Origin: a virus | IMG/VR virus record: IMGVR_UViG_3300042389_001027 | Location: 32,001 to 96,000 of that record | Direction: 5' to 3' (one strand) | DNA: 64,000 nucleotides | Shown: positions 42,632-61,069 of the stretch, in pieces | Numbering within the stretch: the first letter of the stretch is position 1 | Layout of the letters: each line of letters begins with the position of its first letter | The notes under the pieces: model-generated | Database searches by the model: none | What the model saw: only the letters and a program-made list of their open reading frames with translations | What the model was told of the DNA's origin: nothing | Made by a program: the position numbers and the translations under genes

Positions 42632-44605
42632 ATGGGGAAATTTCTGCGCATAACACGCGCACTTATTTTTATACCTGTCGCCATAATGGCATGGTTCACC
42701 CCAACTGGTGCACGAGCCGCAACCCCCGGTCTCCAAATGACCGTTTACAACAACTTCGGCCACAACGGCTCGCCACCACTTCCCGAAGTCAGTGGACGAC
42801 CAATCGTTGGGACAACGACAGTTGGGAACGTAAACCAAGACTTTGATGCAAGCCCATACTTCAACATGTACGAGGACTTCATCGTCCAGTACGAAGGACA
42901 CGTCACATCGCCTATTGATGCCGATATCAGTTTCCTCCCACCAGCAGATGACGGCACAAAGTTATTCATAGACGGCGTGTTGGTTGACGATAACTGGGTT
43001 GACAAGGGCGGTGGTGCAAACCCAACTGAGCCAATCCATTTCAATGCTGGAGAATCCAAAACGTTCACACTTTGGTTCTATGAGAACGGCGGAGGAGCAT
43101 GGGTTGAACTTTATTGGAATTTAAACGGTGGGTGGGAAATAGTCCCAGAATCGGCATTCACCCAAGATTTAGTAACACCAGCGCCCCCATATCTAAATAC
43201 ACCGAGCAATGTGCAGGTGGTATCCGTAACAGATTCAAGTGTTTCTATTTCGTGGGATACTCCAGAACAGTCAAATGCTGATGTTGAGCGTTACGCAATC
43301 ATGTGGTCATGTGAAACCAACTGGGATGCCGCATATGTAATCTCCTCCTACACAACCGAGGTGACAATTAACGGAATTGACTCTGGCACATCGTGCATTT
43401 TTCAGGTCAGGGCAGATAATGACACGATTCCCGTGTATTCACAATATTCGCAGTCTGTAAGCGGAGTTACACAGACAACTACAACAACTACAACAACTAC
43501 AACAACTACAACGATTCCTGAAACTACTACCACAGAACCAGAAACAACTACAACGACAGAACCCGAAACTACAACTACTGAGCCTGAAACAACAGTTCCA
43601 GAAACAACTACAACTACTGAGCCAGAACCCGAAACTACGACTACAACGGAAGTAGAGGTTCCAGTTGGAACAACAACCCCAGAAGAAACAGTTGAAGAAA
43701 CGCTACCTGAACCAACAGAACCACCCGAAACAACGCCGCCGACGAGCGAACCAGAGGTAGACGTCCCACAAGATGTTCAAGATACCGCTGATGCAGCCGT
43801 TGATGAGATTTTCACGGCATCCACGAATATTGAAGAGTTGGCTGATGCTGTTGATGAACTTGTTGGAGAGGCTGAAACACCAGAGGAATTGGTCGCAGTC
43901 ATTGGGGCTCTTCTTGGGAAAGATTTAACCGAAGAGCAGTTTGATGCCGTTATTGATTCTGTGTTCTCTGAGCCTTTATCGGACGAGAACTTCACTGCTG
44001 CTCTTGAAGCAGTTTTTGAAGAACCACTCACAGATGAGCAGTTTGATGCTGTCATCACAGCAGTCCTTGATGAACCTATCTCCAATGAACAATTTGAGGA
44101 ACTTGTGAATGTTCTTGAGTCCGACTCGGTATCCGAGGAACAGGTTGTTGCTGCTGTTGATGAGATTATTCAGAATCAAATTTCTGAAGAACAGGCTGTT
44201 GACCTCGCAACGAGCGAAAAAGTCTTGCAAAGTATTGACGGCGAGCAGGCTACAGAAATCTTTGATGCTGTTGACATCTCGGAAATAAACCCTGAAGAGG
44301 CTGAACAACTTGTTGCGGCTGTTCAAGATGCCCCAACGGAAGTTAAAGAAGCATTTGAGGGCGAAATCAACATCTTTGAAGGCGCCGTTGACACCTATGT
44401 GCCGCTTGGCTCAACGGTGAGTGTCGGTACACGTCGTGTCGTAGTTGCTGCCGCTGGTGTATTATTTGTAGCACCGACTATTGCGGCTATACCTCCTACA
44501 GCCCCAATAAATGGTAGCGGTAATAATAATCCGACTCCAAATAATAGTGGTGCTGGGAGTGCTTCAATGTCCGTAGAACCACGCAGGAGGGTCAGAGGAA
44601 AATGA
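42632..44605 (+). CDS. secreted/membrane-anchored PA14 + FN3 protein with Thr/Glu/Pro linker and acidic helical repeats
   Basis: Signal peptide ending ARA; ADDGTKLFIDG..FYENGGGA (PA14); ISWDTP..FQVRADN (FN3); C-terminal hydrophobic segment. Confidence 0.75.
   Translation: MGKFLRITRALIFIPVAIMAWFTPTGARAATPGLQMTVYNNFGHNGSPPLPEVSGRPIVGTTTVGNVNQDFDASPYFNMYEDFIVQYEGHVTSPIDADISFLPPADDGTKLFIDGVLVDDNWVDKGGGANPTEPIHFNAGESKTFTLWFYENGGGAWVELYWNLNGGWEIVPESAFTQDLVTPAPPYLNTPSNVQVVSVTDSSVSISWDTPEQSNADVERYAIMWSCETNWDAAYVISSYTTEVTINGIDSGTSCIFQVRADNDTIPVYSQYSQSVSGVTQTTTTTTTTTTTTTIPETTTTEPETTTTTEPETTTTEPETTVPETTTTTEPEPETTTTTEVEVPVGTTTPEETVEETLPEPTEPPETTPPTSEPEVDVPQDVQDTADAAVDEIFTASTNIEELADAVDELVGEAETPEELVAVIGALLGKDLTEEQFDAVIDSVFSEPLSDENFTAALEAVFEEPLTDEQFDAVITAVLDEPISNEQFEELVNVLESDSVSEEQVVAAVDEIIQNQISEEQAVDLATSEKVLQSIDGEQATEIFDAVDISEINPEEAEQLVAAVQDAPTEVKEAFEGEINIFEGAVDTYVPLGSTVSVGTRRVVVAAAGVLFVAPTIAAIPPTAPINGSGNNNPTPNNSGAGSASMSVEPRRRVRGK
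43475..43512 (+). repeat. 9-bp tandem repeat (ACAACAACT)n encoding poly-Thr
   Basis: About four in-frame copies. Confidence 0.85.
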
Positions 44606-48503: not shown

Positions 48504-49747
48504 GCAAGAAACCAACGAATCTGGCAGACCGTCTAGCCGCAGTGGAAAACAAAGCGGAACATCAGGACGATACTAAAACGCGCAAGGCACCACCCGGCTG
48601 GGAACCCGGAGTTATCTGGGATGGCAAAACTGGCACTATCACTACTGACACTATTTACGAAACCCCCGAAGATTGGTCAGACCTTCTGCGGGCGCGAGGG
48701 CTGGACCCCGAAAAGTACGAAGTTGTAGGCGACACAATCAAATGGTGCTCCTATGACGGCTGGAAAAGAGAGAATCCAGAAGATACTGCAACCAGTGCTA
48801 TCTGTTACTCCTTTAAAGCAGAGATTCGCCTCAAGTCAAAGAACCGTTATAGCGGTGATTTAGAGGCGTTATATCACGATGTTCGGAAGAAGAAAAAGGG
48901 CACTAAAGTCACCCCAACTGGTGACAGCACTTTTGTAGTTGCTCTAAGCGATTGGCAAGTCGGAAACAGAGACGGTGGCGGAGTAGAACGCCAAGCCGAA
49001 AAAATCGCCACACTCGTAGACGCAATACCCCAGCGCATAGCCGATTTACGCCGTGCAGGAAACAAAATCGGGCATATTGTCATTGCAGGATTAGGCGACC
49101 TAGCCGAAGGAACCTGCGGACACTACCCAGCACAGCAGTTCAGAATTGAACTAGACCGCCGTGAACAACACAAACTTGTTCGTCGCGGAATCCGAGACAT
49201 CATCATGGCATGTGCGCCATTGGCAGAGAAGGTAACAGTTACTGCAGTAGGCGGAAACCACGGTGAAAACCGAGGGCTCAACGGCAAAGCGTTTACCACC
49301 ACTGGTGATAACGACGATGTCGCTATCTTTGAGCAGATTGCCGAAATACTGTCAGTCAACCCTGAAGTTTACGGGCATGTCGGATTCAGACTCCCGCTAG
49401 AACGGCTCAGCGTTTCGTTAAATCTTTCTGGACATAATGTTGCGTTCACACACGGACACTTATCAAAAGCGAGCGGCAATGCTGCGCAGTCAGTGTGGAA
49501 CTGGTGGAAAGACCAAACTTTAGGTCGTGCCCACTCTGGCGTCGCCGATGCTGACATCCTCATTACAGGGCATTATCACCACTTGAACGTCAAGGAGCAA
49601 GAAGGACGCGCAGTATTCGTTTGTCCAAGTCTCACTTCCGTTGGTGAATACTTCCAAGATGCCTATGGGGTAAGAACCCGTGAAGGAACTTTGTCAATCC
49701 TTATTTCTGAAGACAACGGGTGGGGCGACCTCCACCTCATCAACTGA
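48500..49747 (+). CDS. metallophosphoesterase (Mre11/calcineurin-like)
   Basis: SDWQ, LGDL.EG, GNHGE, THGH, GHYHH motifs. Confidence 0.85.
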   Translation: MSKKPTNLADRLAAVENKAEHQDDTKTRKAPPGWEPGVIWDGKTGTITTDTIYETPEDWSDLLRARGLDPEKYEVVGDTIKWCSYDGWKRENPEDTATSAICYSFKAEIRLKSKNRYSGDLEALYHDVRKKKKGTKVTPTGDSTFVVALSDWQVGNRDGGGVERQAEKIATLVDAIPQRIADLRRAGNKIGHIVIAGLGDLAEGTCGHYPAQQFRIELDRREQHKLVRRGIRDIIMACAPLAEKVTVTAVGGNHGENRGLNGKAFTTTGDNDDVAIFEQIAEILSVNPEVYGHVGFRLPLERLSVSLNLSGHNVAFTHGHLSKASGNAAQSVWNWWKDQTLGRAHSGVADADILITGHYHHLNVKEQEGRAVFVCPSLTSVGEYFQDAYGVRTREGTLSILISEDNGWGDLHLIN

Positions 49748-49755
49748 GGTGACTC

Positions 49756-50289
49756 ATGTGGAATAAACACAATCCAGGCAGTAAGGGAGCACAAGAACTC
49801 GGTTGTGTCTGCCCTGTTGAAGATAACAACAGTGGACTTTGGTCTCCTTTTGGTAAGCGCGACACATGGATACTTAGCGCACTGTGTGAATACCATCAAA
49901 GAGGCAACGAGACCGAAATTGAGCGCAAGATTGCCCACATTGAATCCCTGATGGACAAAGAGATGAGAGGCTACATTGAGTGCGACCATGGCTGGGATGA
50001 ACTCATTATTAGATGCCATGAGGAACTGATAGCACTAGACCCCAACTATGTTCCTGTACAAATTAAACAGAAGTTTGGTGGTCTTCGCTACTACTTTGAC
50101 ACACAAACAGACGAACGGACACGCCTCAAAATGTACGAAACCACAGGAAGATACGAAGCGCTATCACTCAAAACCTGCGAAGTCACAGGAGAAGCAGGTG
50201 TCCTCATGAAACAAGGCGGAACCTACTTCACCGTCAACCCTGCATACGCCCCCGAAGGCTCAGTGGAAGTAGATAGCAATGGACTCTGA
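49756..50289 (+). CDS. conserved phage protein (QIKQKFGGLRYY family) with N-terminal Cys/His domain
   Basis: GCVCPVEDN..C..H fused to GW..LI..QIKQKFGGLRYY..TCEVTG. Confidence 0.6.
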   Translation: MWNKHNPGSKGAQELGCVCPVEDNNSGLWSPFGKRDTWILSALCEYHQRGNETEIERKIAHIESLMDKEMRGYIECDHGWDELIIRCHEELIALDPNYVPVQIKQKFGGLRYYFDTQTDERTRLKMYETTGRYEALSLKTCEVTGEAGVLMKQGGTYFTVNPAYAPEGSVEVDSNGL

Positions 50290-50443
50290 ACGCGAAGAAA
50301 GCGTAGAAAACACGCTCCGAATCATGGCAGTCATCCTACGACAAGAAGAAAAAACCATACAGGTTGACTTCACCCCAGAGTTCCTAGAAGAAGTAGCCGA
50401 CGAAATCTCCGCCCTCAAACAACGATTAGCGGAACAATCATGA
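50279..50443 (+). CDS. hypothetical protein (54 aa)
   Basis: MDSEREESVENTLRIMAVILRQEE...; overlaps both neighbours. Confidence 0.5.
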   Translation: MDSEREESVENTLRIMAVILRQEEKTIQVDFTPEFLEEVADEISALKQRLAEQS

Positions 50444-50649
50444 ATGACTTGACGGAAATCCTCCATCGCGACCCCAGCCACAGATGGGCAGTCGTCATAC
50501 AAGAAGCAACTGAAGACTGGGGCGCCCCCGAATACTTCCTAGTCAAAGGCGACGGATTTAAATACACGATAGTAGCCAGAACCGACTTCCTAGAAGAAGC
50601 CGAAGAAATGGCAACCGCCCTCAACTACTGGGAAACACGCCCACTCTGA
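50440..50649 (+). CDS. hypothetical protein
   Basis: ATGA-coupled ORF. Confidence 0.55.
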   Translation: MNDLTEILHRDPSHRWAVVIQEATEDWGAPEYFLVKGDGFKYTIVARTDFLEEAEEMATALNYWETRPL

Positions 50650-50721
50650 GACCATGAACAAAGCGCCGCATTCTCCCTCCACGTACCCAAATATGGGAAT
50701 GTCCTATATATGGAGAGACCT

Positions 50722-51339
50722 GTGACAACGATAGTGGGGATACAAGGAGACGGTTTCGCTTTACTGGCTACAGACAGCCGAATTTCCAGTTTTGATGAGA
50801 AAGGTAACGCCTACCAGTACACAACCCTAGGTGCTGGCTCCAGCAAACTTGCCACCAACGGCAAATACCTTGTAGGCGCAGCAGGAGACGTCCGAGCCAT
50901 CAACCTCCTCCATCACGCCTTCCACCCACCAGTATGCGCACCATCCCTCAGAGGGAAACGGTTAGACACCTTCATCACCACCAAATTCATCCCCGCATTA
51001 AACAAACTGTTTGACGAACACGGCTACACAACCTCAGAAGACAAACGCACCCACAAATCAGAACACGACTCCACAATCGTCGTCGCCATAAACGCCACCA
51101 TCTACATCATAGAAGGCGACTACTCATGGACATCCGACACCACAGGACTCTACTCCGCAGGCACAGGGTCAAGTTACGCCCTAGGAGCACTACAAGCCCT
51201 CACCCACAAAAACACCACCCCACAACAAGCCAAAACCATCGCCCTCAAAGCCCTCAACATCGCAGCCAAATACGACCCCTACACAGGGACACCATTCCAC
51301 ACATACCTACAAGAACACCAAAAACCCACCAGAAAATAA
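50722..51339 (+). CDS. HslV/proteasome-beta-like Ntn threonine protease
   Basis: GTG start after GGAG gives (M)TTIVG..ATDSRIS..K..AGD..GTGSSYALGAL. Confidence 0.8.
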   Translation: MTTIVGIQGDGFALLATDSRISSFDEKGNAYQYTTLGAGSSKLATNGKYLVGAAGDVRAINLLHHAFHPPVCAPSLRGKRLDTFITTKFIPALNKLFDEHGYTTSEDKRTHKSEHDSTIVVAINATIYIIEGDYSWTSDTTGLYSAGTGSSYALGALQALTHKNTTPQQAKTIALKALNIAAKYDPYTGTPFHTYLQEHQKPTRK

Positions 51340-51348
51340 CACCCCTGT

Positions 51349-51672
51349 ATGACAAACCAAAACCAAACAAACTTAACCGATATACAGGGAATAGACATAT
51401 CAGAAAACTGGATGGACAACGCCAACTGCAAAGGCAAAACCCACCTCATGTTCCCCAAAGAACACAAAGACATCACATACATCACACAAGCCCGCAACAT
51501 CTGCAAAGCCTGCACCGTCCGAGAACAATGCCTCAACTACGCCCTAGAATACCCACCCATAGACATGCACGGAGTCTGGGCAGGCATGACCAGCAGACAA
51601 CTAGCCGCAGAACAAAAAAACAGAGGCATCAAAGCAACCCGCCCCTCACTAGCCCAAATGTTCCCCCGCTAA
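51349..51672 (+). CDS. whiB: WhiB-family Fe-S transcription factor
   Basis: W...A.C....FP..A..IC..C.VR..CL.YAL..GVWAG four-Cys motif. Confidence 0.92.
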   Translation: MTNQNQTNLTDIQGIDISENWMDNANCKGKTHLMFPKEHKDITYITQARNICKACTVREQCLNYALEYPPIDMHGVWAGMTSRQLAAEQKNRGIKATRPSLAQMFPR

Positions 51673-52010
51673 CCGCAACGCACCCCACACTCATCACAAA
51701 ACATCAAACCCCCCACATCCACAAGAGACGGCGAACAATCAGTCCGACCACACGGCTGCAACACCCTCTCGCCCGCAAGATACGCCCGCAACACAGAACC
51801 AGCATCAGGCAACGGCTGACCATCCGCAAGACGAGGCACACCCTGAGCCTCCCGCAAAGCCGACATCACACACACAGCCATCCATTGCTGTAAAGAAACC
51901 CCCTGTGTGTCGCAGAAGTCTATGACTGCGTTTTTGTCTTTGCCTGATAGTAGGAATTCCATTCTGTAGAGGGTTGTGGGGTTTTTGGCGCGTTCAGGTT
52001 TTCTCGGCAT
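51669..52010 (-). CDS. RHH-like protein with C-terminal Zn ribbon
   Basis: MEFLL..KNAVI.FC...GVSLQQW; PCG..C..FCDECG. Confidence 0.55.
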   Translation of the reverse strand: MPRKPERAKNPTTLYRMEFLLSGKDKNAVIDFCDTQGVSLQQWMAVCVMSALREAQGVPRLADGQPLPDAGSVLRAYLAGERVLQPCGRTDCSPSLVDVGGLMFCDECGVRCG

Positions 52011-52161
52011 CGCGTTGTATGAGTGTGGTGATGTATTCGGTGATTGTCATGTCGTATCCGTCGGCGAGTTGGATGATGAGGTTTTTGAGGTCGGGTTCTA
52101 GTTTGATTGTGAGGGTGGTTGGTTTGTCGGCGGGTTTGGGTGGGCGTCCGTTGCGTTTCAT
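51994..52161 (-). CDS. small ribbon-helix-helix-like DNA-binding protein (55 aa)
   Basis: MKRNGRPPKPADKPTTLTIKLEPDLKNLIIQLADGYDMTITEYITTLIQRDAEKT. Confidence 0.6.
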   Translation of the reverse strand: MKRNGRPPKPADKPTTLTIKLEPDLKNLIIQLADGYDMTITEYITTLIQRDAEKT

Positions 52162-52589
52162 TGGTATGTCTCATTCCATTGTTTCGTATAGATTTGTATG
52201 AAGTGTTCTCGGTCGGAGTTTGTGTGTAGTTGGTAGCCGCCTACTATTTTGATGGTGTTGGCGAGTACGGGGTGTAGGTCTTTGGGGGTGTAGTTGCCTG
52301 AGTCTAGTTGGGAGGCTAGGTCTCGGTATTGTGCCCATGCTTCGTGTGGTCCGGGGGCGAGGTCGGTGGTGTGCATGTCTTTGACGCGCCTGTAGACGGT
52401 TCCTGCTCTGGGCATGTAGGTGTCTTCTTTGGCGATGGCGTCTATGGCGGTGTGGCAATCTTCGGCGTCTAGGTCTGCGATGATTCTCCACCATGCGTTG
52501 TACGTCGCTTTAGGGGCGCCAGTGTTCGCTAACTGGTTCCAGTGTGCGAGGACACGGTCAACGATTTCTACACATTCTTCCTTAGTCAT
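52158..52589 (-). CDS. putative helicase loader (G39P-like)
   Basis: EC..IV......W...L.DL....C..AI......P...V; EAWAQ; follows the initiator-like gene. Confidence 0.55.
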   Translation of the reverse strand: MTKEECVEIVDRVLAHWNQLANTGAPKATYNAWWRIIADLDAEDCHTAIDAIAKEDTYMPRAGTVYRRVKDMHTTDLAPGPHEAWAQYRDLASQLDSGNYTPKDLHPVLANTIKIVGGYQLHTNSDREHFIQIYTKQWNETYQ

Positions 52590-53025
52590 CTAAGAACCCT
52601 TTCGCTCCGAGATTGCCGTCCGCTTCGGCGATGTCACAAAACTTCTCTATATGGTCTGCGTCTCTGAAGATGAGTTCCAGACTGTCATACCGTTTCTTGT
52701 TACGGTTCGCCCCCATATGGAACGGTGACATTGAGCAGCCTGTGATTGCTTTCAAGCAGTCATCTACACCGTAGTCGTGTATGGCGGCACCGATAAACAG
52801 TTTGCGTTTCTCATCCAACTTTGTTCGGCTGGATTTATTAGAACGCATTGTGGTGACCCAATGGTCAAACACCCCCTGAATGTCGGCATCATCAACAGAC
52901 CGACACTTAGCGGCTTGACCGACAGCACGCGGAGTACGCCCACGTTTCTTAACAGGTTCAGTAGAAGAAAGAGAGTCCATAAGTTTCAGTATACCCAGTT
53001 GGTCCACATCAAGCAATAGGAACAT
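52582..53025 (-). CDS. replication initiator/replisome organiser C-terminal-like protein
   Basis: VFDHW..L.EKRK..I......D...AI.GC..SPFHMG.N....Y..LELIFR; start may be the ATG at 52980. Confidence 0.55.
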   Translation of the reverse strand: MFLLLDVDQLGILKLMDSLSSTEPVKKRGRTPRAVGQAAKCRSVDDADIQGVFDHWVTTMRSNKSSRTKLDEKRKLFIGAAIHDYGVDDCLKAITGCSMSPFHMGANRNKKRYDSLELIFRDADHIEKFCDIAEADGNLGAKGFLDD

Positions 53026-53464
53026 GAGACCTAATACGAGTAGTTCAATCCACGTCTTAAAGAACTTGGAAAGATGTTCTGCATCACTAACCCATTTGAA
53101 GGGGGTTCGGGGGAAACTTTACGAATTCCCAAACCGCAACAGGTCCATGCAGTGGCTGACCCTCGCAAAACCATATGGCTGAGAGTTCAGTCGGATTTCG
53201 GCGCCGAATGAATTTGTTTCCGCCACCGTCGCTCTTTGTGGAACGACAGCAACGTATGCGATAGAGACGATAGCAGCGTGAGCCCCGCCTTGCAAGCACC
53301 TTTGTGAGTCCCGCACAACAAAAATAGACAGGTTTGTAATATAGCCGCCGACTACTCGTGGTACTCTTGACAACAGGTCGCATGCCCCCCGTGCGGCTCA
53401 AGGCGTTGCAGGCGGGACGGGTATGTGAGAGTTCCCCGTCCCGTCTCCGCTTTTAGCGGGGCTG

Positions 53465-53944
53465 TTACCCTGCAAGTGGTAGAAGGAACAAGCGGGACTC
53501 CCACATCATTCCGATGGCTGCGTATCCAACAACATCCATAAGATTGTCTTCAATGGATTCGTTGTGCGGCTTTCCGCCACCGTCATCACTTGAGAGAAGG
53601 TTTTCAAGGCGCGCCACCTTGTCATGCATGCGAACCATCAAGCCTTGCCGCCCGAAGCGACGGATGTTCTCATGCCCGTAGTCGCGCTGCTTCCTAACGA
53701 GGGTTGCGTGCACCTGCTCAATCGTCATTGGGGTGCCGCGCTTTGCCGCCAGTTCAATAGCATCGCCGCCAATGACTGCCCACATTGCTGCCGCTTTATG
53801 GAATCCTGCTGCCGCGTGGAACAAGTCATCAATAAACCCGTCTAAATCGCTGCGTATCTGAGTGAGGTCTGCTCTTGGCTGCCTACGGACTTGAACCCAA
53901 ATCCCGTCTAGTGCCCAACGCGCTGCTTCATCCCATGTGTCCAT
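53465..53944 (-). CDS. DUF1599 / nucleotide-modification-associated domain 1 protein
   Basis: KQRDYG..G..VRMHDKVARL..ESIEDNLMDVVGYA. Confidence 0.8.
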   Translation of the reverse strand: MDTWDEAARWALDGIWVQVRRQPRADLTQIRSDLDGFIDDLFHAAAGFHKAAAMWAVIGGDAIELAAKRGTPMTIEQVHATLVRKQRDYGHENIRRFGRQGLMVRMHDKVARLENLLSSDDGGGKPHNESIEDNLMDVVGYAAIGMMWESRLFLLPLAG

Positions 53945-53990
53945 AGCGCATTTTTAGCACACCGCTATACGCCACCGTCAGTACTTGAGA

Positions 53991-54299
53991 CTACTCTTCC
54001 TCAAACTTTTTTGATGCTGCGAGCAGTGCCATCTGCATAAGGTTTGACATCGCCATCGCTGCCGCTGTCGCTTCGCCGAACTCTTCCGCGTTGACTTCAA
54101 TAGCCCGCGAAAACTTTTCTTCCACAAACCGTTCGTTGTATAACACAACAATATTATCTTCGGTTAACTGGATGACGACTGGTCCGTCTTCATCCATGGT
54201 TTCGGGTGGTGCCGCGATGACTGCAACCTGCTGTCCAGTTTCGGGGTTTTCAAACCGAAACATTACCTCAGGGTCGTCGCTTCCAAAATTAATGTCCAT
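53991..54299 (-). CDS. hypothetical protein
   Basis: AGGAG RBS. Confidence 0.6.
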   Translation of the reverse strand: MDINFGSDDPEVMFRFENPETGQQVAVIAAPPETMDEDGPVVIQLTEDNIVVLYNERFVEEKFSRAIEVNAEEFGEATAAAMAMSNLMQMALLAASKKFEEE

Positions 54300-58862: not shown

Positions 58863-60353
58863 TCAGAGGTTGCCCCCCTGAACCCGTCGCCATGTTTGCT
58901 TCCAACAGTTTGGATACCACATGGCTGGTTTGATTCCTGACTTCAGTTGCTCAAGAGCCTTGATTCCTTCTTGTACATTCACACGAACGATTACCTTTTC
59001 TTTGCGAACCTGCTTGATACAGTCCATTGCGAGAAAGTCCTCGTAACCGTGGTTGATTCCATGAACAAGTCCGTCCGTGATGAACACGACTGGTGCGTTC
59101 TTGTGTTGCTTCTGCTTGATTGCCCAACGCAGAGCCTCACCGTCAACACCGTTGCCACCGCTACGCTCGGGAACTGCGTCAACCATACGACCCTTTTCCG
59201 CAAGAATGAACAAGTTGTCCTTCTTGTTTTGTGAGTCTGTGGAATAAACCGCAACCGTTGCGCCGGGAGCCTGCTCCATGATTTTCACAAGGTCTGCCGT
59301 GGAGAGTCGCATAGAGCCTGAACCGTCAATGATGACGACTCCACCGTTGCCCTTCTTGCTTGCGTCAAAGATACGACGCTCAGGGTCAATCAACATTCGC
59401 CCGATACGACGAGGGTTGCGTCCCATGTCGGTTGCCCGACGCTTGCGACCCAATCCACCTTGTGCGTGACGAGTGAGTGGGAGTTTGCGAACCTTGAGTT
59501 CTGCCCAAGAGACCGCACGACCACCTTCGCTCGCAGGATTGATTTCCTTGAGTTTGGTTTTGTCAACCTTTGGCTTCGCAGGTTGCTTGTCTGCTTTGCC
59601 AATCTTGTTTGGTTGAGTTTCGCCGTTTGCTTCTGGCTTTCCGCCACCGTCATCACTTGACTGACCTTCTTGACCTTCCTCACCTTCGTCGTTCTCGTCC
59701 TCGGGTGGGTTGGCGATTCGGTCAATCATCTCTGCGATTACTTCGGTGTGGGTGAATCCCAACGGTGCGAGACCGCTTTTTGCGTCAACCGCCGTGCTTG
59801 CGAGAGTCCGACGCTTGTCTGCCTTCGCAATCAGTTTCTCAACCTTCTTGGCAATGTCTCGGAGTGCGTTCGCCCATTCGGGATTTTCCCTGCGGATTCC
59901 CGTGATGAATGGCTTGAGTCCTGCGGAGTTGGAGAATCCAACGACCGTGTAGACCGCACTTGTCCAATCGCCTTGCTTGGCGATTCGTACGCCTGCCTCA
60001 AGTTCAGACCCGTCGCTGAGGTGAGTGAGAACATCAAACCCTGCCTTCTGAGCAAGGAAGTTCACTCGGGATTCCTCAACTGCTCGCAGAGCGATTTCAC
60101 TCGCAATGTTTCGCTGAATCCATGCTGAGAAGTCGTGCGCTGGTGAGACCTTTGCGTGAACCATCTCGTGAGCCCGAATACAACGCTCAGTCTCTCCGTC
60201 ATTTACGGGGACGACCATCACCTTGTCAACAATGTTGGTGTGAGGGAGTCCTCGGACTGGAGCACATGGGTCAACGACCCACGCCCCAATCTCTGTGTCC
60301 CTGCGCCCCAACATCTCGGGCATGGGTTGGTTGTTCATTGTCGCAGTCATCAC
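58863..60353 (-). CDS. VWA-domain protein with N-terminal HExxH (CobT-like MoxR partner)
   Basis: AHEMVH; acidic linker; IDGSGSM MIDAS motif; FITDG. Confidence 0.8.
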   Translation of the reverse strand: MMTATMNNQPMPEMLGRRDTEIGAWVVDPCAPVRGLPHTNIVDKVMVVPVNDGETERCIRAHEMVHAKVSPAHDFSAWIQRNIASEIALRAVEESRVNFLAQKAGFDVLTHLSDGSELEAGVRIAKQGDWTSAVYTVVGFSNSAGLKPFITGIRRENPEWANALRDIAKKVEKLIAKADKRRTLASTAVDAKSGLAPLGFTHTEVIAEMIDRIANPPEDENDEGEEGQEGQSSDDGGGKPEANGETQPNKIGKADKQPAKPKVDKTKLKEINPASEGGRAVSWAELKVRKLPLTRHAQGGLGRKRRATDMGRNPRRIGRMLIDPERRIFDASKKGNGGVVIIDGSGSMRLSTADLVKIMEQAPGATVAVYSTDSQNKKDNLFILAEKGRMVDAVPERSGGNGVDGEALRWAIKQKQHKNAPVVFITDGLVHGINHGYEDFLAMDCIKQVRKEKVIVRVNVQEGIKALEQLKSGIKPAMWYPNCWKQTWRRVQGGNL

Positions 60354-61069
60354 GCACCAACCTTGTCAAGTGCGATTGCGTCCATGAACGATTGTGCTCG
60401 GTCTCGGAACACCATCTTGCTTGCCTTCTCGTCGCCCAACTGCTTGCGGAGCGAGTCAAATGCGTAGAAGGTGCGGAGACTGATACGACGCTCGCCTGCG
60501 TCTGCCATACGGACTGCGTATCCACGCAAATCCTCTGACAGTTTGAGTAGAGCGTTCGGGTGAGGTTGGTTGATTCGGATTGCCACGGGGAATCTGTCTT
60601 TCAGAGCCTCGGGGAGTTCCCTCATGTCCTCAATGTTGGTGGTCATGACGACGCTGAATCCGTCAAGGGGACGAACCTTGCGACCGTTGTCGGGGTTTTC
60701 CCATGACGCTGATTCGGGAGAGTCGGTCATTGCGAGGAGAGTTGCGAACACATCTCCCCCTGCCTTGTCAATCTCGTCAATCACGAGACGACCGCCACGG
60801 AGACCGTCGCCCTGCCATGCCTTGATTGCCTGACCGTCATTCCAACGCCACTCGCCATTGGCAGAGGGCTTGTAGTGACCCTCAACTTGAGCGTTAGTCA
60901 TGTCGTCGGTACAGATGAGTCGCCACGCACCGCCTGCCACATCACCCATGTTCATGCCTGCGTAGGTCTTGCCAGTTCCTGGGGGACCGAACAGAATCAC
61001 ACGGTCAATGCCTGCGATAAGTGCGTCGTTGACTTCCTGCCAACAACTCGGGAGTTCTACTTGATTCAT
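60350..61069 (-). CDS. MoxR/CobS-like AAA+ ATPase
   Basis: GPPGTGKT, VIDEIDKA, MTTN, ALKDRF, ISLR. Confidence 0.88.
   Translation of the reverse strand: MNQVELPSCWQEVNDALIAGIDRVILFGPPGTGKTYAGMNMGDVAGGAWRLICTDDMTNAQVEGHYKPSANGEWRWNDGQAIKAWQGDGLRGGRLVIDEIDKAGGDVFATLLAMTDSPESASWENPDNGRKVRPLDGFSVVMTTNIEDMRELPEALKDRFPVAIRINQPHPNALLKLSEDLRGYAVRMADAGERRISLRTFYAFDSLRKQLGDEKASKMVFRDRAQSFMDAIALDKVGA

What the first reader, a model, noticed from the sequence alone, without database searches (positions are those of the whole stretch)
50200..52560. Extreme local strand asymmetry that flips abruptly at about 51,903, inside a gene
Seen: from about 50.2 kb to 51.9 kb the + strand is strikingly A/C-rich; just after 51,903 it becomes G/T-rich for about 0.6 kb. 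The flip lies within ORF 51669..52010, not at the point where transcription converges (51,670), so codon usage or gene direction alone does not explain it. The polarity (C/A to G/T) matches a bidirectional origin, and initiator-like, loader-like and two RHH-like genes lie immediately to the right. The short range and intensity are unusual. Inference: an origin with prolonged ssDNA exposure, a genome end/pac site subject to resection, or a strand-specific signal for packaging or DNA entry.
Basis: partly seen in the sequence, partly recalled or inferred. Interest (0 to 1): 0.75.

Follow-up and report, generated by a model that had tools for sequence, protein, structure and literature searches.

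The report
Two-letter strand-skew island in phage replication module
In this uncultured freshwater phage of actinobacteria, about 1.5 kb of intact genes is written almost only in A and C on one strand up to one point and almost only in G and T after it, whichever way the genes run; this looks like the scar of a one-strand mutation process that starts beside the phage's replication-start genes.

Summary
The + strand is 73% A+C from 50,896 to 51,903 and 72% G+T from 51,904 to 52,455. At four-fold degenerate sites this is 154 of 160 A+C and 84 of 87 G+T.

The flip lies at codon ~36 of a conserved gene (51669-52010, minus strand), not at the point where the genes converge. Independent assemblies bridge it.

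Among 51 non-redundant related loci with the same gene order (whiB facing RHH-Zn, RHH55, loader, initiator), 19 carry a strong flip. All 19 have the same polarity, and all lie between the whiB stop and the loader gene. The exact position differs: inside either small gene, or in spacers. Whole minus-strand genes can lie in the "wrong" arm, so gene direction and codon preference do not explain it.

The skew also reshapes protein composition. It matches the published but unexplained GRINS skews in everything except duplication. This scan has noted similar islands in other genomes.

Best reading (about 0.4): DNA synthesis starting in this zone and running outward, most likely replication initiation next to the initiator and loader genes. 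Break repair is a close rival. No origin motifs were found, and no read-end data exist.

The parts
50896..51903 (.). Left arm of the island. The + strand is 73% A+C (GC skew -0.43, TA skew -0.49). It covers the 3' two-thirds of the HslV-like gene, whiB, and the 3' two-thirds of the minus-strand RHH-Zn gene.
   Evidence: Changepoints. Third positions are 307 of 330 A+C and four-fold sites 154 of 160. The minus-strand gene part is 74 of 78 A+C on the + strand. Skew values.
51903..51904 (.). Flip point, at the maximum of the cumulative A+C minus G+T curve. It falls at codon ~36 of the RHH-Zn gene.
   Evidence: The flip score is 0.98 against a genome-wide sd of 0.12. The close relatives L040-L043 flip at the same place.
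51904..52455 (.). Right arm of the island. The + strand is 72% G+T (GC skew +0.41, TA skew +0.51). It covers the first 35 codons of RHH-Zn, all of RHH55 and the 3' 100 codons of the loader-like gene.
   Evidence: Third positions are 172 of 189 G+T and four-fold sites 84 of 87. Skew values.
50279..50895 (+). Weaker left tail. It holds two small + strand ORFs whose third positions are mostly A/C (+0.66 to +0.71) and the first 62 codons of the HslV-like gene (+0.29).
50710..51339 (+). HslV/proteasome-like peptidase gene (209 aa). The island's left border lies inside it.
   Evidence: Pfam Proteasome, E 4.7e-10. phrog_1040, HslV family, E 2.9e-20. Split composition.
51349..51672 (+). WhiB-family regulator gene (107 aa), the last gene of the rightward arm. 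Its third positions are 91% A/C.
   Evidence: Pfam Whib, E 1.6e-14. phrog_472. Composition.
51669..52010 (-). RHH-Zn gene (113 aa). It has an N-terminal helix pair resembling ribbon-helix-helix repressors and a C-terminal four-Cys motif. The flip lies inside it. Codons 1-35 end in A/C and codons 36-113 end in G/T (sense orientation).
   Evidence: Orthologues in L002, L009 and many other loci share invariant Cys, Pro and Gly columns. AlphaFold2 model with pLDDT 82. The Foldseek matches are weak, and the best of them are RHH proteins. No Pfam or PHROG hit.
51994..52161 (-). RHH55, a small conserved gene (55 aa) that overlaps its neighbours on both sides. It lies wholly in the right arm here. In L002, L009, L052 and L082 the flip lies inside it, at residues 21-27.
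52158..52589 (-). Helicase-loader-like gene (143 aa). The island's right border lies inside it, at about codon 45.
   Evidence: phrog_2289 (helicase loader), E 3.4e-7, and phrog_9804. Split composition.
52582..53025 (-). Replication-initiator-like gene (147 aa; O-like or DnaD-like C-terminal part). It is not skewed.
   Evidence: phrog_16167, E 7e-18, and phrog_18020 (O-like). Third-position score -0.04.

Best explanation
This is a point-anchored island of strand-asymmetric substitution pressure. It is the same kind of signal as the published GRINS "intense nucleotide skews", but single-copy and bipolar.

Proposed mechanism (inferred, not shown): DNA synthesis repeatedly starts somewhere in the ~0.5-1 kb zone between the whiB stop and the helicase-loader gene and runs outward for about 0.3-1 kb. 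On each side, the strand that runs 5' to 3' away from the point gains G and T by C-to-T and A-to-G changes. That strand is either the newly made strand or the displaced parental strand of the same sense. Its complement therefore becomes A/C-rich. Silent sites saturate, and replacement sites follow as far as the proteins tolerate.

The start zone is most probably the phage's replication-initiation zone. It sits directly downstream of the initiator and loader genes of a phage in which I found no replicative polymerase or DnaB-type helicase. Such a phage presumably loads the host replisome, as lambda O/P does.

Shown here: the geometry, the independence from gene orientation, the saturation at synonymous sites, and the recurrence with fixed polarity in relatives.
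Inferred: that synthesis starts there, that it is replication rather than repair, and the chemistry of the bias.

The confidence of 0.4 is for the replication-initiation reading. The broader claim, outward DNA synthesis from this zone whatever starts it, I put at about 0.65.
For: 1. The bias follows the DNA strand, not the gene.
- Within one gene, codons 1-35 end in A/C (+0.77) and codons 36-113 end in G/T (-0.90).
- In relatives, whole minus-strand genes lie in the left arm with G/T-ending codons: L092 and L048 score -0.76 and -0.89, and three genes in L057 score -0.68 to -0.79. The same RHH-Zn gene lies in the right arm in L078 and L083, at +0.91 and +0.86.

2. It peaks at strictly synonymous sites (96% at four-fold sites) and also shifts protein make-up. 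The T/P/H/Q/N/K share of RHH-Zn is 0.11-0.21 in the left arm, 0.57-0.59 in the right arm and 0.27-0.28 without an island.

3. Recurrence. 19 of 51 non-redundant syntenic loci (about 13 lineages) have a flip of 0.6 or more. All have A/C-to-G/T polarity, and all lie between the whiB stop and the loader gene. In several lineages the arms decay with distance (L078, L046).

4. In the whole genome, sharp flips of 0.6 or more are A/C to G/T 3 times and G/T to A/C never. One of the three is an ordinary Thr/Pro-rich linker.

5. The polarity equals that of leading strands leaving a bacterial origin, and that of the displaced, deamination-prone H strand of vertebrate mtDNA. This is established knowledge; I saw only the listed abstract of PMC3269015.

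6. Initiator and loader genes adjoin the right arm. A second flip of the same polarity lies at genome ~119.17-119.20 kb, 100-150 nt from two adjacent perfect matches to the DnaA-box pattern.

7. Pfam DNA_pol_A, DNA_pol_B, DNA_pol3_alpha, Prim-Pol and DnaB_C give no match in the genome.
Against: - No iterons or other repeats at the flip.
- No promoter-like sites (0 found against 2.6 expected).
- No DnaA box within 1 kb.
- No AT-rich stretch at the flip, and no special fold at the flips that lie inside genes.
- The two transcription arms converge on the point, so forks leaving it would meet transcription head-on. That is unusual for a main origin.
- 27 of 51 syntenic relatives, with the same initiator and loader genes, have no island. 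An origin alone is therefore not sufficient.
- The flip is not at one homologous nucleotide. It moves over ~0.5-1 kb between lineages, which fits a zone better than a defined cis site.
- The polarity cannot separate origin firing from break repair.
- No read-end, depth-gradient or transcript data could be obtained, because only contigs are held.
Confidence: 0.4

Rival explanations
1. Recurrent double-strand breaks or recombination in the zone where the late and early gene arms meet. After 5'-to-3' resection, the gaps are refilled outward from the break by a low-fidelity polymerase, or the heteroduplex is corrected with a G-T-specific bias. Either leaves the same G/T enrichment on the refilled strands. 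This is the gene-conversion idea attached to GRINS.
For: - It has the same geometry and polarity as the best explanation.
- Arm lengths of 0.3-1 kb are of the size recalled for resection and conversion tracts.
- GRINS are linked to gene conversion by their authors (PMC8256042, sections read).
- Contigs of two runs from different studies match the window from 51,966/51,968 rightward and carry unlike, A/C-rich sequence to the left. That junction is 65 nt from the flip.
- Among close relatives, identity dips to 84-86% at 51.8-52.0 kb, against 92-100% beside it.
- Identity ranks for whiB and for the loader disagree between lineages: L052, L082, L048 and L092 are at 73-78% and 25-28%, while L009 and L046 are at 65-70% and 42-47%.
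- The patchy distribution among relatives is easy to explain if a break-making factor comes and goes.
Against: - In an all-against-all BLASTN of the 29 flip-bearing loci, none of the 19 internal alignment ends (16 alignments) lies within 200 nt of a flip.
- No homing-endonuclease-like gene was seen among the annotated genes at 50-53 kb.
- The identity dip at the flip could itself result from the skew pressure on the protein.
- The classical outcome of resection plus deamination of the 3' tails gives the opposite polarity (recalled from work on clustered mutation in yeast and cancers).
Confidence: 0.25
2. Selection for two-letter strands. A stretch in which each strand uses only two non-pairing letters cannot form hairpins or contain palindromes. 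It would yield G-rich outward transcripts that form stable R-loops. That could be favoured at a site that must stay open (helicase loading, priming) or must escape restriction.
For: - The signal is conserved in place and polarity across about 13 lineages.
- Phage population sizes are large enough for weak per-site selection to act (inference).
- Stable G-rich RNA-DNA hybrids prime replication in ColE1, T4 and mitochondria (recalled).
Against: - The borders and the flip fall at different places in each lineage and inside genes.
- The pressure degrades protein composition.
- More than half of the syntenic relatives do without it.
- No outward promoters were found.
- The same kind of skew occurs in unrelated settings (GRINS in polyketide synthase genes), which argues for a general mutational cause.
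Confidence: 0.1
3. A transcription-linked bias. The dominant transcript on each side is A/C-rich, and the flip marks where rightward transcripts reading past whiB give way to leftward ones.
For: - Most genes in both arms have A/C-rich sense strands.
- The genome as a whole has a slight sense-strand A/C excess at third positions (mean +0.05).
- The flip is always at or downstream of the whiB stop, never inside whiB, in the 19 strong cases.
- The four lineage groups with spacer flips (L078, L083, L057, L096/L111) show an A-run, a short GC hairpin and a T-run, like two-way terminators.
Against: - RHH-Zn, RHH55, the loader and the initiator overlap by 4-17 nt, as in a coupled operon, so the leftward mRNA must cross the flip.
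- In relatives, up to three whole minus-strand genes lie in the antisense arm, up to 1.1 kb past the convergence point.
- The outer borders lie inside genes, not at promoters.
- Known transcription-associated asymmetry enriches G+T on the sense strand, which is the opposite sign (recalled: Francino and Ochman; Green and colleagues).
- The gene-internal flips have no terminator-like fold (z from -0.03 to -0.93).
Confidence: 0.1
4. Import of a ready-made skewed segment from another phage, or an assembly artefact.
For: Phage genomes are mosaics. Identity to relatives varies gene by gene.
Against: - Independent assemblies from many studies carry the island: 22 run rows from 19 studies hold the stretch or part of it, and several contigs bridge the flip.
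- The island's proteins are orthologous to those of unskewed relatives, in the same gene order.
- The skew fades into ordinary DNA on both sides in each lineage, with lineage-specific borders.
Confidence: 0.03

Closest known systems
[quoted passage not shown]
   Same: - Intense and tightly correlated GC and TA skews. Here mean |GC| is 0.40, mean |TA| is 0.48 and r is 0.97, against 0.11, 0.12 and 0.15 in the rest of the window.
- Abrupt sign changes within 1 kb.
- Strongest at third codon positions.
- The same shift of amino acids (Gly, Val, Cys, Trp against Pro, Thr, His, Gln).
- Functional proteins are kept.
- Common in Actinobacteria and also reported in replication/recombination genes and phage genes.
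- Cause unknown.
   Different: - Single copy: no second copy of either arm exists in the genome, so the defining repeat criterion fails.
- It is bipolar around one point, with a fixed polarity.
- It is tied to one gene module across about 13 phage lineages.
- It spans several unrelated small genes rather than paralogous modules.
Replication-associated strand asymmetry: the skew switch at bacterial origins, and the deamination gradient on the displaced H strand of vertebrate mtDNA (I saw only the search listings and abstracts of PMC3269016, PMC3269015 and PMC2099444)
   Same: - The sign of the switch: the strand leaving the point 5' to 3' is G/T-rich.
- C-to-T plus A-to-G is the type of change that would produce it.
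- Strongest at silent sites.
- Decay with distance in several lineages.
   Different: - The range is 0.3-1 kb instead of a whole replichore.
- The intensity is far higher than the skews I recall for bacterial chromosomes (about 0.02-0.2).
- Genes converge on the point instead of leaving it.
- No origin motifs were found.
Lambda-type origins that lie in or beside the initiator gene and use an initiator plus a helicase loader to recruit the host helicase (recalled textbook knowledge; no paper read)
   Same: The initiator-like and loader-like genes are adjacent, and the island starts 127 nt downstream of the initiator gene's end. I found no phage polymerase or DnaB-type helicase.
   Different: No iterons or AT-rich region were detected. 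The candidate zone lies in the two small genes downstream of the loader, not in the initiator gene. Function is untested.
Earlier unpublished notes of this scan on bipolar A/C-to-G/T islands in other phages (e1-6044702, e1-5664362, e1-6098166) and at fibre-module junctions (e1-6016762, e1-5995417)
   Same: The same two-letter skew at silent sites, a point-like flip that ignores gene direction, and sharing by relatives.
   Different: These are other genomes and other gene contexts. They are AI notes that I did not re-test. Here the flip sits in a replication module and was mapped in 51 syntenic relatives.

Membership tests
GRINS (Nivina et al. 2021) | Region longer than 500 bp with mean absolute GC and TA skews above 0.15 | tested here: met
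   The arms are 1,007 and 552 bp. Mean |GC skew| is 0.40 and mean |TA skew| is 0.48 in 150-nt windows. The definition comes from section 5 of PMC8256042.
GRINS (Nivina et al. 2021) | GC and TA skews correlated, strongest at third codon positions, with a shift in amino-acid use | tested here: met
   Pearson r is 0.97, against 0.15 in the rest of the window. Third-position A+C minus G+T scores are 0.8-0.9 in size, against 0.0-0.4 at positions 1 and 2.
GRINS (Nivina et al. 2021) | Duplicated: more than 80% DNA identity to another region of the same cluster or genome | tested here: not met
   Only the self-match appears in the 128.6-kb genome. BLASTN of each arm finds nothing longer than 25 nt elsewhere.
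Bidirectional replication origin | Strand-skew switch with the leading strand G/T-rich on both sides | tested here: met
   The + strand goes from A/C-rich to G/T-rich at 51,903. That this polarity marks origins is established knowledge.
Bidirectional replication origin | Initiator-binding repeats (iterons or DnaA boxes) and an AT-rich unwinding element | tested here: not met
   There is no repeat family beyond short chance-like matches. The nearest match to the DnaA-box pattern with one mismatch is at 53,000. GC content is 0.43-0.63 across the flip, and the lowest 60-nt window (0.32) is at the HslV/whiB junction, 51,348. Sites for the phage's own initiator are unknown, so their absence is not proven.
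Bidirectional replication origin | Autonomous replication, nascent-strand starts, or a copy-number peak | not testable with these tools
   All 23 runs found are kept as contigs only, so no read ends and no usable depth are available.
Genome end / pac site | Physical DNA ends (read-end pile-ups) near the packaging genes | not testable with these tools
   No raw reads are held. The site lies 83.9 kb into a 128.6-kb record whose ends overlap by 127 nt, among replication genes.
Transcription-associated strand asymmetry / codon preference | The bias follows the sense strand of each gene and changes sign at gene or operon borders | tested here: not met
   The sign changes inside a gene. In the left arm, 74 of 78 third positions of the minus-strand gene are A+C on the + strand, like the plus-strand genes there. 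Whole genes are antisense-skewed in relatives.
Ribbon-helix-helix repressors (for the gene that holds the flip) | Strand-helix-helix fold, or a family profile match | tested here: inconclusive
   There is no Pfam or PHROG hit and no PDB profile hit with E up to 1. The AlphaFold2 model (pLDDT 82) has helices at 23-36 and 40-55. Foldseek finds nothing at E 0.001 or better, but the best short matches are RHH proteins: 6iya (TM 0.83 by target, rmsd 1.0 over 45 columns), 9kkd (0.85), CopG and Arc.

The most novel reading that the evidence does not exclude
The island is a natural, nucleotide-resolution footprint of where this phage group starts DNA synthesis with the hijacked host replisome. The first few hundred bases made (or displaced) at each firing suffer a transition bias more than ten times stronger than elsewhere. 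On this reading, GRINS-type skews in general are scars of localised, one-strand DNA synthesis starts. If so, unmapped origins or break sites of uncultured phages could be read directly from sequence, and the phage module would be a small, tractable system for finding the enzyme behind GRINS.
Probability: 0.25. Interest if true: 0.8.

Novelty: new variant of a known kind. Interest (0 to 1): 0.62.

Why it matters
Intense two-letter skews (GRINS) are in print as an unexplained phenomenon of repeated polyketide synthase modules. Here the same signal appears as a single-copy, bipolar island with three properties that make it useful:
- It has a fixed polarity.
- It is anchored to one small module beside the replication initiator and loader genes.
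- It is present in some lineages of a phage group and absent in close syntenic relatives.

That turns an open question into a testable one. One can compare island-bearing and island-free relatives, map DNA ends and nascent strands at one known point, and measure the mutation spectrum there.

There is also a practical warning. Orthologues in opposite arms differ strongly in amino-acid composition (T/P/H/Q/N/K share 0.11 against 0.59 for the same protein), which can mislead homology searches and trees.

In four full-text searches I found no paper describing such islands in phages.

Tried and rejected
**Explanations tested and rejected**
- Sense-strand or codon-preference explanation: rejected.
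- Amino-acid composition as the cause: true only for the separate A/C-rich patch at 43,399-43,802, which is a Thr/Pro/Glu linker. It does not explain this island, where four-fold sites are 96% biased.
- Assembly join: rejected.

**Feature searches that found nothing at the flip**
- Known RNA family: only one sub-threshold Rfam match (18 bits against a gathering score of 58.6).
- Iterons and inverted repeats: only short imperfect matches.
- Promoter and terminator scan: 0 promoters. There were 4 terminator-like sites against 2.9 expected, one of them at 51,918-51,900 on the minus strand.
- RNA folds across the four gene-internal flips are no better than shuffles (four folds at three flips: the window on both strands, L002, L009). 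Of the three spacer flips folded, only L083 stands out (z -2.97).
- DnaA boxes near the flip: none.

**Database searches with little or no yield**
- Megablast of 49,000-54,000 against the phage records: no match.
- A viral-contig scan with RHH-Zn found no relative. Orthologues were found instead by tblastn on loci fetched with HslV and WhiB.
- The loader scan returned only the L002 lineage again.
- The nearest named record, Actinomycetia phage DSL-LC01 (HslV 46% identical), has a different gene order after whiB.
- PDB profile searches with the RHH55 and RHH-Zn alignments: nothing meaningful.

**Second flip**
- Relatives found with the 379-aa neighbouring protein: one self-match and two contigs that end before the flip.
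- No match in three related records, and two handles were not held.

**Other negative tests**
- Mosaic junctions: of 19 internal BLASTN alignment ends among the 29 flip-bearing loci, none lies within 200 nt of a flip.
- Phage-encoded NucS: absent.
- Substitution direction from close relatives and from laid contigs: not informative. At compositional equilibrium the counts are symmetric, and most differences were not listed (442 hidden).
- RNA contigs of run X21 cover parts of whiB and of the loader/initiator region but do not bridge the flip. They cannot show strand or ends, so I draw nothing from them.
- L002, L003 and L004 are identical over 10.6 kb and count as one lineage.

Full report
**Where the window lies.** The window is bases 32,001-96,000 of a 128,618-bp viral record whose ends overlap by 127 nt. 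The whiB gene and the lake and river runs that hold the DNA fit that description.

- In 300-nt windows the + strand reaches GC skew -0.54 and AT skew +0.60 left of 51.9 kb, and +0.47 and -0.53 to the right.
- Treating A+C against G+T as one variable, likelihood changepoints fall at 50,896, 51,903 and 52,455. The two arms have mirror-image compositions: A .35, C .37, G .15, T .12, and the reverse.
- GC and TA skews correlate with r = 0.97 in the island, against 0.15 in the rest of the window.
- Purine/pyrimidine balance is untouched.
- Nothing else in the genome comes close. Elsewhere, 1-kb windows have sd 0.07 and a maximum of 0.17, against 0.46 here.

**The genes.**
- On the + strand lie an SbcD-like exonuclease, three small ORFs, an HslV-like peptidase (50710-51339) and whiB (51349-51672).
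- Facing them on the minus strand, in tight overlap, lie an initiator-like gene (52582-53025), a loader-like gene (52158-52589), a 55-aa gene (RHH55, 51994-52161) and a 113-aa gene (RHH-Zn, 51669-52010).
- An endolysin-like gene upstream shows that the rightward arm is the end of the late region.
- RHH-Zn is a real gene. Orthologues occur in every syntenic relative examined, with invariant Cys, Pro and Gly columns.
- Its AlphaFold2 model (pLDDT 82) has a helix pair whose best, weak structural matches are ribbon-helix-helix repressors.

**The bias follows the DNA strand, not the gene.**
- Third codon positions carry it: 307 of 330 are A+C in the left arm and 172 of 189 are G+T in the right arm. 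At four-fold sites the counts are 154 of 160 and 84 of 87.
- Inside RHH-Zn, codons 1-35 end in A/C and codons 36-113 end in G/T.
- Both outer borders also fall inside genes.
The skew does not vanish at synonymous sites, the flip is 234 nt from the convergence point, and independent assemblies bridge it.

**Relatives.** I fetched 34 viral loci with the HslV-like protein and 80 metagenome loci with WhiB.
- Of 115 sequences (the window included), 65 show whiB facing the loader gene, and 51 of these remain after removing near-identical ones.
- Of those 51, 19 have an A/C-to-G/T flip score of 0.6 or more (14 are at 0.8 or more). Five are intermediate and 27 have none.
- The 19 fall into about 13 lineages.
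- Every strong flip has the same polarity and lies between the whiB stop and the loader gene, but the position differs:
  - RHH-Zn residue ~35 (window clade), ~26, ~73-74 or ~86;
  - RHH55 residues 21-27 (four lineages, two of them at the same codon);
  - the whiB/RHH-Zn spacer (two lineages);
  - a spacer before the loader (two lineages).
- In L092 and L048 an extra 150-aa minus-strand gene lies wholly in the left arm, with G/T-ending codons. In L057 three minus-strand genes do. In L078 and L083 RHH-Zn lies wholly in the right arm.
- The same protein thus exists in three "alphabets". Its T/P/H/Q/N/K share is 0.11-0.21, 0.57-0.59 or 0.27-0.28.

**Elsewhere in the genome.**
- Sharp flips of 0.6 or more are A/C to G/T three times and the reverse never.
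- One of the three is an ordinary Thr/Pro/Glu linker.
- Another, at genome ~119.17-119.20 kb and outside the window, lies in a ~450-nt spacer. Its long right arm decays over several kb, and two adjacent perfect matches to the DnaA-box pattern lie 100-150 nt to its left.

**What it is like.** GRINS share every compositional trait seen here: correlated GC and TA skews, abrupt sign changes, a third-position maximum, the same amino-acid shifts, an actinobacterial bias, and occurrence in replication, recombination and phage genes. Their cause is unknown. GRINS are defined as repeats, however, and this island has no second copy. It is also bipolar, with a fixed polarity, and tied to one module. I therefore class it as a new variant, not a member.

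**How it most likely works.**
- On both sides, the G/T-rich strand is the one that runs 5' to 3' away from the flip.
- That is the geometry of DNA synthesis leaving the point. The nascent strand gains G and T through G-T mispairs, which is the error-prone-copying idea of the GRINS authors. Alternatively, the displaced parental strand of the same sense gains them through C and A deamination, as on the mtDNA H strand (abstract seen).
- Origin firing and fill-in after a resected break give the same geometry, so polarity cannot separate them.
- I favour replication initiation (about 0.4) for three reasons: the zone adjoins the initiator and loader genes; I found no polymerase, primase-polymerase or DnaB helicase in the phage; and the second flip sits by DnaA boxes.
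- Against this reading: no iterons, no DnaA boxes and no AT-rich element at the first flip; the genes converge on it; and most syntenic relatives lack it.
- Break repair or gene conversion (about 0.25) is supported by a junction to unlike DNA at 51,968 in contigs of two studies and by a local identity dip in close relatives. It is not supported by BLASTN alignment ends among the flip-bearing loci.
- Selection for structure-free strands and a transcription-linked bias are less likely, for the reasons given under the rival explanations.

**Limits.**
- All runs are held as contigs, so read ends, depth and transcript strands could not be examined.
- The direction of ongoing mutation could not be measured.
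- Supplementary files of papers were closed.
- This scan has noted similar islands in at least 17 other genomes. Those are unchecked AI notes and not independent evidence.

Noticed in passing
genome 118,896-120,540 (outside the window; L036 2,900-4,540): A second A/C-to-G/T flip (score 0.79) lies at genome ~119,168-119,195, in a ~450-nt spacer of the leftward arm. Its right arm decays over several kb. Two adjacent perfect DnaA-box-pattern matches sit at L036 3046-3066, and a possible 47-aa TTG-started + strand ORF covers the left arm.
   Followed up: partly
window 43,399-43,802: This A/C-rich patch (+0.43) is simply a Thr/Pro/Glu-rich linker inside a 657-aa secreted-looking protein (42632-44605). 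It is not the same phenomenon.
   Followed up: yes
window 51,966-51,968: Contigs of two runs from different studies (X6, X11) match the window rightward from here (97.7% over 4.6 kb in X11) but carry unlike, A/C-rich sequence to the left. A relative therefore has a different left module, or a shifted flip.
   Followed up: partly
window 51,800-52,000: Among close relatives (L040-L043), nucleotide identity dips to 84-86% (96% in L040) exactly around the flip, against 92-100% on both sides.
   Followed up: partly
whole genome G000: A 128.6-kb phage gives no match to Pfam DNA_pol_A, DNA_pol_B, DNA_pol3_alpha, Prim-Pol or DnaB_C. It does carry an initiator-like gene, a loader-like gene and a clamp-loader-like ATPase (60350-61069), so it probably depends on the host replisome.
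   Followed up: partly
L092 4245-4697; L048 850-1305; L057 4411-4911: Some relatives carry an extra 150-166-aa minus-strand gene inserted between whiB and RHH-Zn. It is written almost wholly in G/T-ending codons. I did not annotate it.
   Followed up: no
window 50,710-51,339: A phage-encoded HslV/proteasome-beta-like peptidase lies directly upstream of whiB. This pairing is kept in the named lake phage DSL-LC01 (OQ999401.1).
   Followed up: partly
   Followed up: no
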